Source of the DNA: Propionibacterium ruminifibrarum
GTDB taxonomy: Bacteria > Actinomycetota > Actinomycetes > Propionibacteriales > Propionibacteriaceae
Reading direction: 5' to 3'
NCBI RefSeq assembly: GCF_900289195.1
Contig: NZ_OMOH01000005.1
Span: 90,001-122,000, forward strand
Length of the DNA: 32,000 bases
The notes below the pieces were generated by a model that was given only the letters and a program-made list of their open reading frames with translations, had not been told where the DNA came from and made no database searches. Positions 1 through 4,609 of the stretch are shown one piece after another. Every line of letters starts with the position of its first letter. Position 1 is the first letter of the stretch. The position numbers and the translations under genes are program-made.

Positions 1-130
1 GACCGCTCCGATCGGCGGGCGCATGGTCGACGACGAGGAACTCATCGCCTGGGCCACCGGTTTCGTCACCGCGATCTTCGCCCCCGACGAGCCGCGCGCC
101 GCTGTCGGGTCTGTCAGAGGAACGGTGTAA
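1..130 (+). CDS. 3' end of an unidentified protein-coding gene (partial; 5' part lies outside the window)
   Basis: Frame 2 is open from nt 2 to TAA at 128-130 (TAPIGGRMVDDEELIAWATGFVTAIFAPDEPRAAVGSVRGTV*). Third codon positions are strongly G/C-biased. It is too short for the ORF track. No family assignment is possible. Confidence 0.4.
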   Translation, partial: TAPIGGRMVDDEELIAWATGFVTAIFAPDEPRAAVGSVRGTV

Positions 131-500
131 GTGGCCCGATTGCCCGTTGGGGCAGAGAAGCCATGTTGACCGAGATCGCTACCGGCGCTGTCGAGCTCGT
201 CGAGGGATTAGCCGGAGAGGATACCGTGCTCGAGCAGCTTCATCCTCATCACCTGAGTTGGCCGAGTTGGATAAGGCCCAGCGAGAGACGATTGCCGAGC
301 TGGTGCGTCAGTGGCAAGGACGCTGGTATGGTCTTTACCGGTCCCGGGCGGGCTGTATGCAGGCGTTGACCGCTCAAGTGGTTGAGGCCACCTCGGGCGT
401 GTTTGAAAGTACTGTGTTAAGGGTGTGCTTGTGAGTGTGTCGGTGTTGGTTGGGGGGCTCCCGTCTGGACGGGTTTGGTGTCGAATCGCTCCTATCTTCA

Positions 501-520
501 CCGGGAGGGTTATTCAAAAC
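501..520. repeat. Left terminal inverted repeat of the IS5-like element
   Basis: ccgggagggttattcaaaac matches the reverse complement of 2865-2884 (cccggaggggtattcaaaac) at 18 of 20 positions. Similarity stops immediately outside. Confidence 0.7.
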
Positions 521-836
521 TGTTTTTGTAGAATTCTGGTGCGATGATTGCTGTGATGGTTTGTGGGAGGGTGTGGATGGGCCTGCGGTAGCCGGTGTGG
601 AGTGTCTTCCAGGTTTTCAGGTGGGCGATTGCTCGTTCGACTGGGGCTCGTAATGAATTGGTGGCGTGGTTGTATTGTTTCTGCCAGTCTGTGAGCTCGC
701 CGCCTAGTGGTTTGCGTATCGGGGTTGTCATGCCCAGCCCGGTGTAGCCCTTGTCACCCAGTGGTGGGGTGTCCGGGAAGCCGTCAAGAAAACCCGTGGA
801 TTGGATGGCTTTCGCGTCGTGGGTCGATCCGGGGGG
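510..836 (-). pseudogene. C-terminal fragment of the IS5-like DDE transposase (split by IS110 insertion)
   Basis: It translates to PPGSTHDAKAIQSTGFLDGF...PLGDKGYTGLGMTTPIRKP...WQKQYNHATNSLRAPVERAIAHLKTWKTLHTGYRRP. This is the typical HD...DKGY...R..VE..I..LK.W..L core of DDE_Tnp_4 / IS5-type transposases. The TTG 'start' at 857 in the ORF track lies inside the IS110 element and is an artefact. Confidence 0.75.
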
Positions 837-853
837 TGTCCCTATGTTTCTTG

Positions 854-2080
854 TCAAGCGGCGAGGGGTGTTGGGGCTGGTTTGGGTGTCTGGTAGGTTT
901 CTTGGTTCTTGATCATGGCGAACAAGACGTCACAGCGGCGGCGGGATAGACAGATCAGGGCTGCGTTGTGTTTTTTGCCTTGGGCTCGTTTGCGGTCGTA
1001 GTAGGCCCGTGAGACGGGGTCTGCTCTCAGCGCGGCGAAGGCTGACAGGAACAGGGCTCGTTTGAGGTGTTTGTTGCCTGACCGGGCGGGGAACTCGCCG
1101 CGGATACTGGTCCCTGAACGACGGGTGATGGGGGCGAGTCCGGCGTAGGCGGCAAGGTGTCCAGCGGTCGGGAACTGTGAGGCGTCACCGACGTCGAGCA
1201 GGATCCGCGCTGCGGTCCTGACCCCGACGCCTGGCATCGAGATCAGGACCTCGGCAAGAGGGTGAGCATCAACAACCTTCTCGACCTGGCTGGCGAGCTC
1301 GGCCCGCTGGTCCAGGACCTGGCGCAGGGATGCCGCCAACTTGGGTAGGACCTGCTCGGCTGCAGCCGTCCCGGCGACGACAACGGTCTGTTCTGCCAGC
1401 GCTGTGGTGATCGCGTTGGCGAAGTCGGCCGCGCCGCGCGGGTTGGCCTTGTTGATCACTCGAAGCATGCGGCTTTTCGACGCGGCTGTCATGCCTTGAG
1501 GCCCGCCGAGTTGCTCGATGACGGCCAGGCCTTGCTTGGTGGCCAGCCTGGGCCCGATGACGCGTTCTAGTGCGGGATGGATTTGTGTCAGCAGGCCGCG
1601 GATACGGTTCGACAAGCGAGTCGCTTCGGCGGCGAGGTCCTCGTCAAAGCCGACCAGTACCTTCAACTCCGCCAAAGTGTCCTCACCGGCATCGACGCGA
1701 CGTAGTGTGTGGGGCATGCTCCGGGCGGTCTCGGCGATGACGAACGCGTCACGGGCATCGGTCTTCACGTTGCCTGGGTAGAGGTCGGCTGCGCGGCGCA
1801 TCGCCAGCCCTGGAAGATAGGCGACAGTGATGCCCATCGACCTGGCGACCGCGATTGGTAACGCGCCGATCGTGTTGGGCTGATCAACGATCACCAACAT
1901 CTGGCCAAGGCCCTCAAGGCGGGTGAACAGTTCCTCCAAGCGCTTCTGGTCTTGTGGCAGGGGCTTGTCGAACACTCGTCTGCCAGCAGCATCCAGAGCG
2001 CAGGCGTGATGGGCTTGTTTACCCACATCCAGTCCGCACCAGATGTCGTAACCGGTGTTCTGGTCCATGACGGTCACCAT
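854..2080 (-). CDS. IS110-family (DEDD / RuvC-like) transposase
   Basis: The N-terminus reads YDIWCGLDVGKQAHHACALD (the IS110 N-terminal DEDD domain). The C-terminal part reads MPGVGVRTAARILLDVGDASQFPTAGHLAAYAGLAPITRRSGTSIRG...GNKHLKRALFLSAFAAL (the IS116/IS110/IS902 C-terminal domain). The ORF is open to 2134. ATG at 2080 or 2068 gives the family-typical ~405-aa length, so the start is ambiguous. Confidence 0.9.
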   Translation of the reverse strand: MVTVMDQNTGYDIWCGLDVGKQAHHACALDAAGRRVFDKPLPQDQKRLEELFTRLEGLGQMLVIVDQPNTIGALPIAVARSMGITVAYLPGLAMRRAADLYPGNVKTDARDAFVIAETARSMPHTLRRVDAGEDTLAELKVLVGFDEDLAAEATRLSNRIRGLLTQIHPALERVIGPRLATKQGLAVIEQLGGPQGMTAASKSRMLRVINKANPRGAADFANAITTALAEQTVVVAGTAAAEQVLPKLAASLRQVLDQRAELASQVEKVVDAHPLAEVLISMPGVGVRTAARILLDVGDASQFPTAGHLAAYAGLAPITRRSGTSIRGEFPARSGNKHLKRALFLSAFAALRADPVSRAYYDRKRAQGKKHNAALICLSRRRCDVLFAMIKNQETYQTPKPAPTPLAA

Positions 2081-2305
2081 CCTCCCATCGAAGCGACGGC
2101 CGTCGGGCACTGGTGACGCGTCAGCTGCCAGCACCCACGTTACGAAGAGACCTCAATGCTGGGCCGTGTCCCTATCAGCGGTCGGCTGGCGCCACCAGGC
2201 CCGGTGACAACACCCCCCGGATCATTCATGCGACAGGGCAGACCAGTCATGCCGGGCCCGGCGACCGTGACCCCAACCAAAGGGGCCACCAACAAGGTAA
2301 CGGGC
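2081..2305 (-). ncRNA. Candidate IS110 bridge (seek) RNA locus in the 5' non-coding end of the element
   Basis: The 225-nt stretch upstream of the transposase is non-coding. Positions 2210-2223 are the exact reverse complement of 826-839 (target flank plus CA core). Positions 2166-2175 are an exact direct copy of 836-845 (core plus IS right end). The RNA itself, its ends and its fold were not verified. Confidence 0.35.
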
Positions 2306-2737
2306 TGGGTCGGGTACCCATACGAGTCGTCTGGTGAGGGTGCAGGCGATCTGGAGGTTCAACCCGGTGGTGTGGTGCTTGCCCGAGTACAGGCCTTGGG
2401 CGTGTTTGCAGTCCCAGCAGGGCACGAGGGTGCCGTCCACGATCAGGGTCTGGTCCAGGTCGTCTGTGGTGGGTACGAGGTCTGCGAGGACCTCGACGAT
2501 ACGGGCCGTCCACTGGGCGATGGCTCGGCTGGTCGAGGACTGGCTGGCTCCGAAGGACTCGGCCTGTTTGGTTTGGGCGCGGTTGGGTCGCTGGTAGGTC
2601 AGGGTTGCTCTGATTTCTTCTACCTGGCTCAGTGCTGGTGGCTGGCCGGTGGTCTGTGGGGTGCGGGGGTAATTGTGGACGAGGGTCTGGTAGCAGATTG
2701 CGATTGCTTCGGCGGGCAGGCCTGTTGTATGGTACAT
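2306..2737 (-). pseudogene. N-terminal fragment of the IS5-like DDE transposase (split by IS110 insertion)
   Basis: MYHTTGLPAEAIAICYQTLV...SQSSTSRAIAQWTARIVEVLADLVP...TLIVDGTLVPCWDCKHAQGLYSGKHHTTGLNLQIACTLTRRLVWVPDP contains an HTH region plus the first catalytic Asp region (DGT). After codon 2308-2306 the frame runs into IS110 sequence and stops at 2222. Confidence 0.75.
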
Positions 2738-2864
2738 GCGAGGACTTGTTCTGAGAATAATTGTTGTGTTCGATAAGCCAATTGTCTCAGTGGCAGGTCC
2801 TCGCCTTTCACCCAGACACGCCCACACCAGCAGAGCAGATTCCAAGATCACCCCTCAAACCAAG

Positions 2865-2884
2865 GGTTTTGAATACCCCTCCGG
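2865..2884. repeat. Right terminal inverted repeat of the IS5-like element
   Basis: This is the partner of 501-520. It lies 29 bp downstream of the stop codon (2913-2915) of the last PKS-cluster gene. Confidence 0.7.
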
Positions 2885-2912
2885 GAGTGGACTTCTCGAA
2901 ACCGGTGATTTT

Positions 2913-3914
2913 TCAGACTCTGTCCACGTCCTCAACCGTGAAGAGCCCCTTCTTCCTCTCGTAAGATTGCAGTCTCTGTATGTCTGATCCGAAGGGTGAC
3001 AACAGGGCTACGATACCCGAATCCGTCCGGGCGTCACGCTTCAGGGTTTCCTTGACCGGTCGAGTGTACAGTCCCGTCGGACTGAGATCGGTGAACATTA
3101 TATCATTATGATGGGACAGCCTCGTCAATCCTGCTTGGAAGTCAAAAGGGCGTCGCAGGATGTCGAAGAGCATGCCAGGGCCAGGCTTCTCGTGTCGGCC
3201 ATCTACACAGCTCTGCACAACGATGGGTGAGCATCTACTTGAAACCGGGGGGCATCTCTCGAGGAAGGGCGATCGGATTCGTTCCATTAATTGGCTGTGG
3301 AAGGCATACGCCACCGACATACGTTGTGCGAGGATCCCGTTCCGGTGGCAGAATTCCATGATACGGTTCAGCACGGGTCGCATCCCCGTGAACACGAGCG
3401 TGTCGCTCCCGACCCGTCCGGCAAGAGCGCTCTCGAAGGTACTCAGCTGCTCTAAGGCTTCGTCATTAGGGGCAACGACGCTGATCATACCCTGTCCGTA
3501 AGGGTCCTTGTCTGCGGATGCGAATGTTGACTTCAGTAAAGTTACCTGCAACGCAAGGATCTCAAAAAGAGCCTCGACGGAGATTTGGCAGGACACTGTC
3601 AGAGCGACATACTCTCCTAGGGATGTACCCATGACGATGTCGGGTTCATACCCCCGGAACATGAGCATATCCGTGAGGGCTAGTTGGATGGCGGGGATGG
3701 CGAAATGTGTTTCGGCCAGAGAATCGAAGGTGTCGCTGGGGTGCCTCGCCGGATCGTAGATCACCTCTGAGACAGACCGTCCGCCAAGGTCCAACACTAT
3801 GCGTGCATAACGTTCGAGACACGCGTGAAACACGATGTCGTTCTCGTACAGTTGGCGCCCCATCTGATAGTACTGGCTCCCCTGACCTGAATATAGGAAT
3901 ACTCGCTTCACCAC
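2913..3914 (-). CDS. Atypical acyltransferase-like protein (FabD/AT fold; possible acyl hydrolase or non-malonyl acyltransferase)
   Basis: The N-terminus VFLYSGQGSQYYQMG carries the GQGSQ loop. The nucleophile elbow reads MGTSLGEYVAL (Thr codon 3626-3624, Ser codon 3623-3621) instead of GHSxGE. YAFHSQLM retains the catalytic His. The position of the malonyl-binding Arg (xxRGxxM) reads ALQVTLL. Confidence 0.85.
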   Translation of the reverse strand: MVKRVFLYSGQGSQYYQMGRQLYENDIVFHACLERYARIVLDLGGRSVSEVIYDPARHPSDTFDSLAETHFAIPAIQLALTDMLMFRGYEPDIVMGTSLGEYVALTVSCQISVEALFEILALQVTLLKSTFASADKDPYGQGMISVVAPNDEALEQLSTFESALAGRVGSDTLVFTGMRPVLNRIMEFCHRNGILAQRMSVAYAFHSQLMERIRSPFLERCPPVSSRCSPIVVQSCVDGRHEKPGPGMLFDILRRPFDFQAGLTRLSHHNDIMFTDLSPTGLYTRPVKETLKRDARTDSGIVALLSPFGSDIQRLQSYERKKGLFTVEDVDRV

Positions 3915-3919
3915 GACGC

Positions 3920-4609
3920 CTAATCGGTAACGGGCAAGCTTGAAAAGGTGAAGAGATTCTTCTGTCCCCGTCTCATTCTGAACTTGCAGAACTGATCAAC
4001 CTTGTCGATTTGTAGGTAGATATTCGTCTTCTTCGCTTGGGCGAAGGTCAGGCCGTTCGCCACCTGGTAGGAATGCCCGGAGAGAATCCGCACGTCGTCG
4101 GCCATCAGCGTTACTAGCCTCCTGAGGCTGTGGAATAGCTCTGTTGCCCATTCCATGGACTCGCAAATTCCGCAACCATCCGGGAACAAGGTGTCTCCTG
4201 TGAACAGGTCGCGGCCCCACTGGTAGCAGGCGCTCCCAGGGGTGTGTCCTGGTGTCATAAAACACGTGACGTGGTTGCGCCCGATGACAAGTCTTTGTCC
4301 TTCGCAGACCAGAAGCGATGAGTAGCCTTGTCCATAACCGCTCCACTGGTGCTCCAACTCGGACACCACCAGCTGAGCACCGTATCGTTTAACGAAACGT
4401 TCGGCCAAATTCGTATGGTCTAGATGGGAATGGGTTATGAGCACATATCTCAACCGCACACGGAGGCCGTCTAGGACCGCTGTGATCTTGTCCATCTGCC
4501 ATGCAGGATCTATGATCGCGGCTTCGCGACTCACTTCATCGACCAAGATATAACAGTAATTGATGAAGGGGCCGAAGCTGGTCTCGACGGGGATAGTCGT
4601 CGTGGTCAT
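3920..4609 (-). CDS. Metallo-beta-lactamase-fold hydrolase (glyoxalase II-like; PksB/BaeB-like context)
   Basis: It has the HxHxDH motif in VLITHSHLDHTN, followed by TPGHTPGS, TGDTLF and LSGHS metal-ligand motifs in the canonical order. Its start overlaps the PPTase stop by 4 nt. Confidence 0.85.
   Translation of the reverse strand: MTTTTIPVETSFGPFINYCYILVDEVSREAAIIDPAWQMDKITAVLDGLRVRLRYVLITHSHLDHTNLAERFVKRYGAQLVVSELEHQWSGYGQGYSSLLVCEGQRLVIGRNHVTCFMTPGHTPGSACYQWGRDLFTGDTLFPDGCGICESMEWATELFHSLRRLVTLMADDVRILSGHSYQVANGLTFAQAKKTNIYLQIDKVDQFCKFRMRRGQKNLFTFSSLPVTD

What the first reader, a model, noticed from the sequence alone, without database searches (positions are those of the whole stretch)
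2081..2305. IS110 5' non-coding end carries exact matches to its own target flank and to its own right end, as expected for a bridge/seek RNA
Seen:
- Read on the minus strand, the 225-nt non-coding left end contains two exact matches.
- (i) 2223->2210 reads gatccggggggtgt, identical to plus-strand 826-839. This makes it the exact complement of the insertion-site sequence. That site comprises 11 nt of IS5-like coding DNA for PPGS (826-836), the CA core (837-838) and the first IS base.
- (ii) 2175->2166 is a same-orientation copy of 845->836 (atagggacac in minus sense). That sequence comprises the last 7 nt of the IS110 right end, the CA core and one flank base.
- A specific 14-mer or 10-mer is not expected by chance in 225 nt.
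- Segment (i) cannot be a terminal repeat of the element, because most of it lies outside the element in conserved transposase codons.
- On the putative transcript the target-matching segment lies ~35 nt 5' of the donor-matching segment.

Established: IS110-family recombinases (shown for IS621 and relatives in 2024) use an element-encoded bispecific RNA from the non-coding end. One loop of that RNA base-pairs with the target DNA and the other with the donor (IS end) DNA, around a shared core dinucleotide.

Inference:
- This copy encodes such an RNA programmed for a site inside the IS5-like transposase gene, with CA as the core.
- I found only weak (6-nt) candidates for the guides to the left target flank and the IS left end.
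Basis: partly seen in the sequence, partly recalled or inferred. Interest (0 to 1): 0.65.

Follow-up and report, generated by a model that had tools for sequence, protein, structure and literature searches.

The report
IS110 element with its bridge RNA
A small mobile element of the IS110 family carries, ahead of its recombinase gene, the guide ("bridge") RNA already known for this family, which matches its own ends and the run of C's it landed in; it is an ordinary new member of a known system.

Summary
Both repeats are real: rc(2210-2223) = 826-839 (14 nt) and 2175->2166 = 845->836 (10 nt). Chance is unlikely (P about 5e-5 and 0.012).

The region is the 237-nt left end of an intact IS110-family element (2305->839, minus strand), nested in an IS5-like element (501-2885). 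Intact homologues show that CCCCCCGGATC is genuine target DNA.

Comparison with about 110 related loci supports a bridge RNA of the IS621 type:
- a 5' hairpin;
- a long covarying stem enclosing the right target guide (2223->2211);

All three guides covary with their DNA partners. For example, guide GAAAAGGUG goes with flank CACCTTTT.

Three corrections apply:
- The target guide is conserved across the clade and reads CA plus a run of six C's. Most copies match exactly 8 nt; only this one matches 13, so it is not programmed for the IS5 gene.
- No left target guide could be shown, and left flanks are unrelated.
- CA is rarely present at left junctions, so its role as the core is unproven.

The closest named relative, ISRhosp7, already falls in a cluster that Durrant et al. 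assigned a left-end bridge RNA. This is a new member of a known kind.

The parts
839..2305 (-). IS110-family insertion sequence (1467 bp), reading 2305->839: left end 2305->2069, transposase, right end 853->839
   Evidence: Homology to more than 20 related elements runs from query position 2 to 1467 and stops there. A second copy with an identical protein and an identical left end lies in a different left flank (L035).
854..2068 (-). DEDD/serine recombinase (transposase) gene, 404 aa, intact; ATG at 2068, TGA at 856-854
   Evidence: Pfam PF01548 DEDD_Tnp_IS110 (E 9e-49, profile positions 1-155 of 155) and PF02371 Transposase_20 (E 1e-23).
2127..2305 (-). Putative bridge RNA coding region within the 237-nt non-coding left end. 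The transcript ends were not determined.
   Evidence: Blocks at least 90% conserved alternate with stems that vary by compensatory change across 38 diverse left ends.
2267..2289 (-). 5' stem-loop (GUGGCCCC / GGGGUCAC)
   Evidence: Helix 1: 84.6% of cells paired; 6 of 8 pairs show changes on both sides.
2246..2265 (-). 5' strand of the target-binding-loop stem (GUCGCCGGGCCCGG, then CA, then UGAC)
   Evidence: Helix 2: 18 pairs, 94.9% paired, 8 pairs with changes on both sides. The stem is also present in the single-sequence minimum-free-energy fold and in RNAalifold.
2236..2244 (-). Candidate position of a left target guide (GGUCUGCCC), assigned by analogy with IS621; unproven
   Evidence: It lies where IS621 has its left target guide. 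Its match to the element's own left flank is no better than to other flanks (permutation P 0.06-0.10).
2211..2223 (-). Right target guide GAUCCGGGGGGUG, complementary to the element-sense strand of 838->826. The proximal 8 nt (GGGGGGUG, 2218->2211) are the part consistently matched in relatives.
   Evidence: Variant guides match their own flanks over 8-10 nt, against 3-4 nt for the majority guide.
2209..2210 (-). UU at the position of the IS621 handshake guide. It can pair with A839 and G840 (wobble), the last bases of the IS right end, which accounts for the 14th matching base.
   Evidence: Position assigned by analogy with IS621 nucleotides 81-82. The pairing is not conserved in relatives (GU, AA and CU variants), so the assignment is weak.
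2191..2208 (-). 3' strand of the target-binding-loop stem (GUCA, then CCGGGCCUGGUGGC)
   Evidence: helix 2.
2166..2175 (-). Left donor guide AUAGGGACA(C), same sense as the IS right end plus CA (845->837)
   Evidence: Four right-end haplotypes (ATAGGGAC, ATAGAGGC, ATAGGGGC, ATAGAGAC) each go with the matching guide. The 10th base varies in relatives.
2149..2165 (-). Small hairpin between the two donor guides (GGCC, variable loop, GGUC)
   Evidence: Helix 4 (85.5% paired). The loop varies in length and sequence.
2132..2143 (-). Right donor guide GUAACG(U)GGGUG, complementary with one bulged U to CA-(N)CCC-GTTAC, i.e. the core plus the start of the left end (2307->2296)
   Evidence: Read from the sequence. 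Compensatory changes: CGTTAC/GUAACG, CATTAC/GUAAUG (L079, L083, L086, L101) and CGTTATG/CAUAACG (L111, L113, L114).
839..853 (-). Short right end (CAAGAAACAUAGGGA); the TTGACA hexamer (857->852) overlaps the stop codon
826..838 (-). Right junction: CA (838-837) plus right target flank CCCCCCGGATC (836->826), which are codons of the interrupted IS5-like gene
2306..2318 (-). Left junction: CA (2307-2306) preceded by left target flank GTACCCGACC; no guide matches it
501..2885 (-). Host IS5-like (DDE_Tnp_4) element that the IS110 interrupts. Terminal inverted repeats at 501-520 and 2866-2885; gene fragments at 2740->2306 and 836->510.
   Evidence: (I1, 20 nt, 90% complementary).

Best explanation
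The 237-nt non-coding left end of this IS110-family element encodes a bridge RNA of the IS621 type.

Architecture (minus strand):
- a 5' hairpin;
- a long stem (2265->2246 with 2208->2191) enclosing a target-binding loop;
- a second, donor-binding loop.

Guides:
- In the first loop, GGGGGGUG (extendable to GAUCCGGGGGGUG, 2223->2211) pairs with the element-sense strand of the target to the right of the insertion point: CA plus a run of six C's.
- In the second loop, AUAGGGACA (2175->2167) pairs with the bottom strand of the IS right end.
- GUAACG(U)GGGUG (2143->2132) pairs with the top strand of the IS left end. Together these two hold the joined right-end/left-end donor.

Mechanism: the DEDD/serine recombinase (2068->854) then exchanges strands next to the CAC/C-run that donor and target share.

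What happened here: the element landed in the Pro-Pro-Gly-Ser codons (CCC CCC GGA TCG, or GCC CCC GGA TCG) of an IS5-like transposase gene. These codons happen to offer the C run and five further complementary bases.

Status of the steps:
- Shown: the sequence matches, the element boundaries, the pre-existence of the target sequence, the covarying stem, and the covariation of three guides with their DNA partners.
- Inferred from the family: that the region is transcribed, that the recombinase binds the RNA, and that pairing is RNA-DNA.
- In this clade recognition appears to rest on the right half-site only.
For: - Family and anatomy: Pfam domains; long left end (237 nt) and short right end (15 nt).
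- Chance is unlikely for both matches.
- The target sequence was present before insertion. Intact IS5-like homologues, including Propionibacterium australiense DNA GACCCGGCCCCCGGATCG, align without a gap to the rejoined flanks.
- Right target guide versus flank, across 54 independent right junctions:
  - GATCGAAAAGGTG goes with CACCTTTTT, CACCTTTTCG and CACCTTTTC;
  - GATCCAGGAGGTG goes with CACCTCCT;
  - GATCTGGGTTGTG goes with CACAACCC;
  - GATCTGGTGGGTG goes with CACCCA;
  - the three classes with 8-10-nt own-guide matches give only 3-4 nt against the majority guide.
- Left donor guide versus right end: four haplotypes, each matched.
- Right donor guide versus left end: three kinds of compensatory change.
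- Structure: 88.4% of cells paired against 34-53% with partners slid; 18 pairs with changes on both sides against 9.2 +/- 2 in shuffles; conserved loops and variable stems.
- The order and strandedness of the guides equal those of IS621 (PMC11208158; PMC11208160).
- The nearest named relative, ISRhosp7, has the same guides and the flank CACCCCCCGG. Its ISRhosp7/8 cluster is tabulated with 'LE' and 'IS110' in a supplementary table of Durrant et al.; I read this as a predicted left-end bridge RNA.
- A second copy with an identical protein and left end lies in another flank, which suggests recent activity.
Against: - No transcript, promoter or RNA-protein binding was shown. The sigma-70 scan finds nothing in 2000-2500.
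- The fold energy of the single sequence is not unusual (z = -1.2).
- No Rfam family matches.
- One of the four guides of the IS621 model, the left target guide, could not be demonstrated. Left flanks of 58 insertions have no consensus.
- The dinucleotide CA is absent from more than 90% of left junctions, which a simple conservative exchange at a shared CA core does not predict.
- The outer stem of the donor-binding loop is only 75.8% paired.
- Covariation of the donor guides with the IS ends would also arise if they were repeated protein-binding sites.
Confidence: 0.85

Rival explanations
1. The RNA is specifically programmed for this site in the IS5-like transposase gene, with a 13-14-nt guide and a CA core.
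For: - This copy has the only 13-nt contiguous match among 54 junctions.
- CA is present on both sides of this copy.
- In IS621, lengthening the complementarity of the right target guide improves recombination.
Against: - The same guide sequence is kept by elements from about 57% to 100% protein identity, in more than 50 unrelated sites that share only CA plus the C run.
- The distribution of matches beyond 8 nt (9 nt in 8 junctions, 10 nt in 4) is close to what chance gives.
- AUGAUC is invariant even where the 6-nt guide body differs, which suggests a structural role.
- The second copy of the same IS (L035) sits in a different left flank.
- CA is present at only 3-4 of 58 left junctions.
Confidence: 0.08
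2. The two repeats are DNA-level features with no RNA involved. They would be sub-terminal repeats or recombinase-binding sites that include part of what looks like the flank.
For: - IS1111-group relatives have sub-terminal inverted repeats of 7-17 bp.
- CACCCCC follows the right end in nearly all copies.
- Covariation of repeated binding sites within an element would also be expected.
Against: - The C run plus GGATC is needed to keep the IS5-like gene in frame and aligns with intact homologues, so it is target DNA.
- Flanks with the same guide diverge at different points, after 7-10 nt.
- The C run at left junctions varies from 3 to 9, as if target runs were split.
- A long stem with compensatory changes encloses the segment.
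- The family mechanism is established experimentally.
Confidence: 0.05
3. The matches are chance in G+C-rich DNA.
For: Shuffles often give 7-9-nt matches; the direct 10-mer alone has P about 0.012.
Against: The 14-mer has P about 5e-5. The matches are conserved and covary across about 80 loci.
Confidence: 0.01

Closest known systems
IS621 bridge RNA and recombinase (IS110 group; Durrant et al. 2024, PMC11208160; Hiraizumi et al. 2024, PMC11208158)
   Same: - DEDD plus Tnp-domain recombinase.
- Long left end 5' of the gene and a short right end.
- A 5' hairpin followed by two stems with internal loops.
- In the first loop, a right target guide complementary to the top strand of the core plus right flank.
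- In the second loop, a left donor guide of the same sense as the right end.
- A right donor guide that pairs discontiguously, with bulged U, with the core plus left end.
- The same 5'-to-3' order of guides.
   Different: - The consistently used right target guide is 8 nt (potentially 13), against 4 nt in native IS621.
- No left target guide or left-flank consensus is detectable, whereas IS621 uses 9 nt.
- There is no obvious hairpin between the two target-guide positions.
- The invariant dinucleotide at the right junction is CA, not CT, and it is mostly missing at the left junction.
- The target is a homopolymeric C run rather than a REP sequence.
- The target loop is highly conserved across the clade, whereas in the IS621 set it is the less conserved loop.
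ISRhosp7 / ISRhosp8 (Rhodococcus; ISfinder names as used in RefSeq annotation), in the same protein cluster as IS110 of Streptomyces in Durrant et al.'s supplement
   Same: - About 68% nucleotide identity over the whole element.
- The same GAUCCGGGGGGUG, AUAGGGACA and GUAACGUGGGUG segments.
- The right flank is CACCCCCCGG.
- Its cluster is tabulated with 'LE' and 'IS110' in Durrant et al.'s supplement, which I read as a predicted left-end bridge RNA in the IS110 group.
   Different: The host lineage differs: the relatives of the window's element are mostly Propionibacteriaceae. The window's element is about 81% identical to its nearest genomic relatives and, as far as these tools show, is unnamed.
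Half-match recombination by IS621 (bioRxiv 10.64898/2026.08.31.748434)
   Same: A partner site complementary across the core and only one flanking arm is enough for insertion in vitro, and it explains off-target insertions. The natural sites of this clade look like matches to the right target arm only.
   Different: In IS621 this is a minority off-target route. Here it would be the normal mode. That is an inference from insertion sites, not a test.

Membership tests
IS110 family, IS110 group (bridge-RNA-guided insertion sequences) | Recombinase with an N-terminal DEDD RuvC-like domain and a C-terminal Tnp domain | tested here: met
   PF01548 (positions 1-155 of 155, E 9e-49) and PF02371 (2-86 of 87, E 1e-23) in an intact 404-aa ORF.
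IS110 family, IS110 group (bridge-RNA-guided insertion sequences) | Long non-coding left end upstream of the gene, short right end, no long terminal inverted repeats | tested here: met
   The left end is 237 nt (2305->2069) and the right end is 15 nt (853->839). The ends were fixed by homology to more than 20 relatives. No terminal inverted repeat appears.
IS110 family, IS110 group (bridge-RNA-guided insertion sequences) | [quoted passage not shown] | tested here: met
   - 88.4% of cells paired against 34-53% with partners slid; 18 pairs with changes on both sides.
- The first large stem is very well supported (94.9% paired).
- The outer stem of the second loop is weaker (75.8% paired).
IS110 family, IS110 group (bridge-RNA-guided insertion sequences) | Right target guide complementary to the top strand of the core plus right target flank, covarying with it | tested here: met
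   - 13 nt of complementarity in the window.
- 8 nt in most of the 54 junctions.
- The four minority guide classes with a changed guide body match their own flanks: three over 8-10 nt (against 3-4 nt for the majority guide) and the fourth, L098, over 6 nt.
IS110 family, IS110 group (bridge-RNA-guided insertion sequences) | Left target guide of the same sense as the left target flank plus core | tested here: inconclusive
   - Left flanks of 58 insertions have no consensus.
- Self versus non-self matching is equal.
- The register-specific test gives P 0.06-0.10.
- A few loci match well: L081 has 4 exact bases beyond the C run.
IS110 family, IS110 group (bridge-RNA-guided insertion sequences) | Left donor guide (same sense as the right end) and right donor guide (complementary to the left end, discontiguous) in the second loop | tested here: met
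   AUAGGGACA matches the right end plus CA. GUAACG(U)GGGUG is the reverse complement of CAC CC(C) GTTAC. Both covary with their partners.
IS110 family, IS110 group (bridge-RNA-guided insertion sequences) | A core dinucleotide shared by donor and target and present at both junctions | tested here: inconclusive
   - CA flanks this copy on both sides.
- Across the clade, CA is nearly invariant at the right junction but occurs at only 3-4 of 58 left junctions.
- A C directly precedes CCCGTTAC in 74% of left junctions.
- Right-end/left-end junctions in L004, L060 and L072 read ATAGGGACA-CCC-GTTACC; L064 has CCCC.
- CA, AC or a CC inside the run all remain possible.
IS110 family, IS110 group (bridge-RNA-guided insertion sequences) | [quoted passage not shown] | tested here: inconclusive
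   A perfect TTGACA lies in the right end (857->852), but the best -10-like hexamer of the left end (TACCTT, 2298->2293) would be 21-22 nt away. The scan of the linear sequence finds no promoter.
IS110 family, IS110 group (bridge-RNA-guided insertion sequences) | RNA is expressed, binds the recombinase and is required for recombination | not testable with these tools
   No expression or biochemical data are available.
IS1111 group (seekRNA / bridge RNA in the right end) | Long right end carrying the RNA, and sub-terminal inverted repeats of 7-17 bp | tested here: not met
   The right end is 15 nt. The inverted repeat found here joins the interior of the left end to target DNA, not the two ends of the element.

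The most novel reading that the evidence does not exclude
This actinobacterial IS110 clade (ISRhosp7-like) may normally use one-sided target recognition. It would rely on an extended, clade-wide conserved right target guide that reads a homopolymeric C run, with no functional left target guide and no need for a matching core dinucleotide in the target. It would then be a natural system living on what was described for IS621 as off-target half-match recombination. Its junctions, which keep the target's own dinucleotide on the left and the donor's CA on the right, would fit transfer of the top strand only.
Probability: 0.3. Interest if true: 0.45.

Novelty: new member of a known kind. Interest (0 to 1): 0.25.

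Why it matters
For annotation, this explains a nested insertion (IS110 inside IS5-like) next to a trans-AT polyketide gene cluster. It also gives exact coordinates for a non-coding RNA that no Rfam model finds.

For the bridge-recombinase field it adds little that is new in kind, because bridge RNAs had already been predicted for most IS110 elements, apparently including the nearest named relatives. Two things may be useful:
- A set of more than 50 natural insertions with a long, conserved right target guide and no visible left-flank requirement. This is natural evidence bearing on half-site recognition and on where strands are exchanged.
- A naturally long (8-13 nt) right target guide, a property that was engineered into IS621 to raise efficiency.

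Tried and rejected
- Rfam scan of 1-4000 at permissive E-values: only a chance sRNA hit outside the region; no bridge RNA family.
- Single-sequence fold of 2305->2069: it contains the long stem, but the energy is not unusual (z -1.2), so it was not used as evidence.
- RNAalifold on 16 sequences pairs the C-rich segment with the G run of the guide and gives a poor second loop. I replaced it with a structure drawn by analogy with IS621 and tested that.
- Left target guide:
  - a search by eye;
  - longest common substring, self versus non-self;
  - a register-fixed comparison with and without G-U wobble;
  - all negative or borderline.
  - An apparent enrichment of GCCGA in left flanks was dropped. 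The matching RNA bases (AGCCGACC) are not conserved in relatives, and the motif sits at varying distances.
- Fixing the crossover point:
  - A CA core fits this copy without any assumption, except that the left end starts with G. The second copy, L035, shares that G.
  - An AC core, or a CC core inside the run, fits the population of left junctions better. For this copy it requires either Ala (GCC) in the target or a frameshifted target.
  - No intact near-identical copy of this IS5-like element exists in the protein database; the best is 83% identical. The empty site could therefore not be read, and the question is left open.
- Promoter scan: nothing found.
- Look-up of the 426-aa (GTG start) version of the transposase: not on record.
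- L019, L025 and L029 are degenerate or truncated copies and were not used for junction statistics.

Full report
**1. The observation**

Both matches are in the sequence as described.
- Minus-strand 2223->2210 (GATCCGGGGGGTGT) equals plus-strand 826-839. This is an exact 14-nt inverted repeat that does not extend.
- Minus-strand 2175->2166 (ATAGGGACAC) equals minus-strand 845->836, an exact 10-nt direct repeat (13 of 15 if extended).

In 20,000 Markov shuffles of the left end against a 45-nt window at the right junction, an inverted match of at least 14 nt arose once (P about 5e-5). A direct match of at least 10 nt arose with P about 0.012. The best matches to the left flank (6 and 5 nt) are at chance level.

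**2. Anatomy of the locus**

- The minus strand carries an intact 404-aa ORF (2068->854) with full-length DEDD_Tnp_IS110 and Transposase_20 domains.
- BLAST of 2305->839 against 33 related genomic loci, mostly Propionibacteriaceae at about 81% nucleotide identity, aligns from position 2 to 1467 and stops there. The element therefore runs 2305->839, with a 237-nt non-coding left end and a 15-nt right end.
- It sits inside an IS5-like (DDE_Tnp_4) element bounded by 20-nt inverted repeats at 501-520 and 2866-2885.
- Rejoining the two gene fragments gives ...VWVPDPPPGSTHD.... Twelve intact homologues read WVSDPxPGSTHD with no length difference.
- The DNA of the Propionibacterium australiense homologue (GACCCGGCCCCCGGATCG) aligns without a gap to the rejoined flanks (GACCCACCCCCCGGATCG).
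- The run of C's followed by GGATC was therefore in the target before insertion.

**3. What the left end is**

The IS621 work defines the expected layout: a 5' stem-loop, a target-binding loop and a donor-binding loop.
- The target-binding loop holds the left target guide (same sense as the left flank plus core) followed by the right target guide (complementary to the top strand of the core plus right flank), then two handshake bases.
- The donor-binding loop holds the left donor guide (same sense as the right end of the IS plus core) followed by the right donor guide (complementary, discontiguously, to the core plus left end).

The window fits this layout.
- Segment (i) is complementary to the element-sense strand of CA plus CCCCCCGGATC. 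It is followed by UU, which can pair with the last two bases of the right end; this accounts for the 14th matching base.
- Segment (ii) has the same sense as ATAGGGA plus CA.
- Segment (i) lies 34 nt 5' of segment (ii).
GUAACG(U)GGGUG (2143->2132) is the reverse complement of CA-CCC(C)-GTTAC, the junction core plus the left end, with one bulged U. The IS621 right donor guide likewise has flipped-out U's.

**4. Evidence from relatives**

A second scan gave 80 metagenomic loci at 56-88% protein identity. A look-up by exact protein gave a second copy of the same IS in another flank (L035).

a) Structure.
- On 38 diverse left ends, a structure drawn by analogy with IS621 is 88.4% paired, against 34-53% when partners are slid.
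- It has 18 pairs with changes on both sides, against 9.2 +/- 2 in shuffles.
- The stem enclosing the target loop is 94.9% paired.
- Columns conserved at 90% or more are the loop segments (ATGACT, CCC.GTC, ATGATC..GGGGGTG.TGTC, GCTGATAGGG, CGTAA.GTGG.TGC) and the terminal CCC.TTACCTT, while the stems vary.

b) Right target guide.
- GAUCC-G6-UG is the majority form.
- The four variant classes with a changed guide body each match their own right flank:
  - GAUCGAAAAGGUG with CACCTTTTT, CACCTTTTCG and CACCTTTTC (L018, L081, L104);
  - GAUCCAGGAGGUG with CACCTCCT (L066);
  - GAUCUGGGUUGUG with CACAACCC (L112);
  - GAUCUGGUGGGUG with CACCCA (L098).
- For the first three classes the own guide gives 8-10 contiguous nt, against 3-4 nt for the majority guide.

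c) Donor guides.
- Four right-end haplotypes (ATAGGGAC, ATAGAGGC, ATAGGGGC, ATAGAGAC) each occur with the matching guide.
- Left-end variants CATTAC and CGTTATG occur with GUAAUG and CAUAACG.

**5.

a) Specificity.
- Among 54 independent right junctions, the contiguous match to the element's own guide is 8 nt in 32, 9 nt in 8, 10 nt in 4, and 13 nt only in this window.
- The tail beyond 8 nt is close to a chance distribution.
- The AUGAUC part of the guide is invariant even where the guide body differs.
- The functional guide is therefore CA plus six bases, and the clade as a whole targets runs of C.
- Some targets are C10-C11 runs split by the insertion, and the C run at left junctions varies from 3 to 9.
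- The IS5 site is simply an unusually good instance, created by Pro codons.
Other copies with the same 2210-2223 sequence sit in flanks that share the proximal 8 nt and differ beyond them.

b) Left flank.
- 58 independent left flanks show no consensus.
- They match their own RNA no better than other RNAs.
- A register-fixed test of the segment where IS621 has its left target guide (window 2244->2236) gives P 0.06-0.10.
- This fits recognition of a single half-site, which was recently shown to suffice for IS621 in vitro and in off-target events. Here, however, it is only an inference.

c) Core.
- CA is nearly invariant at the right junction but occurs at only 3-4 of 58 left junctions. A C directly precedes CCCGTTAC in 74% of left junctions.
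- Tandem right-end/left-end junctions read ATAGGGACA-CCC(C)-GTTACC (L004, L060, L064, L072).
- For this copy a CA core is the most economical reading. It requires that the left end begins with G, which the second copy L035 shares.
- Exchange at AC or within the C run cannot be excluded. In that case the target would have read CCA GCC CCC GGA, as in the P. australiense homologue, and pre-existing complementarity would be 10 contiguous nt rather than 13.

**6. Comparison with what is known**

- The element works like IS621 and passes the tests for membership of the IS110 group, except for the left target guide, the core and the junction promoter. Those three tests were inconclusive.
- Its closest named relative, ISRhosp7 of Rhodococcus jostii RHA1 (68% nucleotide identity), has the same three guides and the flank CACCCCCCGG.
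- A supplementary table of Durrant et al. tabulates the ISRhosp7/ISRhosp8 cluster with 'LE' and 'IS110', which I read as a predicted left-end bridge RNA in the IS110 group. Another supplementary file places ISRhosp7 in the same protein cluster as IS110 itself.
- No Rfam model covers this RNA.

**7. Verdict**

It is wrong or unproven in detail (site-specific programming, guide length, the CA core).
- This is a new member of a known kind and of modest interest.
- The only potentially novel aspect is the apparently one-sided, C-run-directed targeting of the whole clade.

Noticed in passing
window 2913-31160: The nested insertion sequences lie at the edge of what looks like a trans-AT polyketide synthase cluster.
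- It includes a discrete acyltransferase, an AT plus enoyl reductase (NMO) protein, a ketosynthase, HMG-CoA synthase with enoyl-CoA hydratase (a beta-branching cassette), a phosphopantetheinyl transferase, a metallo-beta-lactamase-fold protein and two FtsX/MacB-type permeases.
- Two giant ORFs of 3502 and 1790 aa were not examined.
- G+C is 51-56% over 3-15 kb, against 60-65% in the IS elements and the giant ORFs.
   Followed up: partly
window 501-2885: The host IS5-like (DDE_Tnp_4 with HTH_Tnp_4) element has 20-nt terminal inverted repeats (CCGGGAGGGTTATTCAAAAC / GTTTTGAATACCCCTCCGGG). It has no intact near-identical copy in the protein database; the best is 83% identical, from a metagenome and from Propionibacterium australiense.
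   Followed up: partly
L004:2715-2787, L060:60-110, L064 (right junction), L072:680-730: Four loci carry a right end joined directly to a left end (ATAGGGACA-CCC(C)-GTTACC). They are either tandem copies or assemblies of the circular form. They give the donor junction, but they disagree on 3 versus 4 C's.
   Followed up: partly
L008, L009, L010, L024, L041: The same insertion, with identical left flank ...GGATCGGCAG and right flank CCCCCAAGAGCGG, is found in Brachybacterium, Bowdeniella and a Tessaracoccus genome bin. In all of them the right junction lacks CA (ATAGGGA-CCCCC). This suggests that a larger mobile segment carries the IS between genera, and that there is a 2-nt difference at the junction.
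   Followed up: no
window 2213-2218 and the same position in L003, L008, L009, L016, L017, L020, L028: The G run of the right target guide varies from 5 to 9 G among close relatives. The C runs at both junctions vary too. This could be homopolymer slippage or sequencing error, and it blurs any exact reading of guide-target register.
   Followed up: no
L007 and L026 flanks: In two relatives the split C run lies in the loop between long inverted repeats (for example GGAAGCCTCC ... GGAGGCTTCC), i.e. inside terminator-like hairpins. Target structure might matter, as reported for ISPpu10 (bioRxiv 10.64898/2026.03.19.712850; only the abstract was seen).
   Followed up: no
window 2293-2298 and 852-857 (minus strand): The invariant left-end terminus CCCGTTACCTT contains a TANNNT-type hexamer (TACCTT) about 7 nt upstream of the 5' hairpin. 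The right end has a perfect TTGACA overlapping the stop codon. In the circular form the two hexamers would be 21-22 nt apart, too far for a standard sigma-70 promoter. The -10-like box alone might drive the RNA in actinobacteria.
   Followed up: partly
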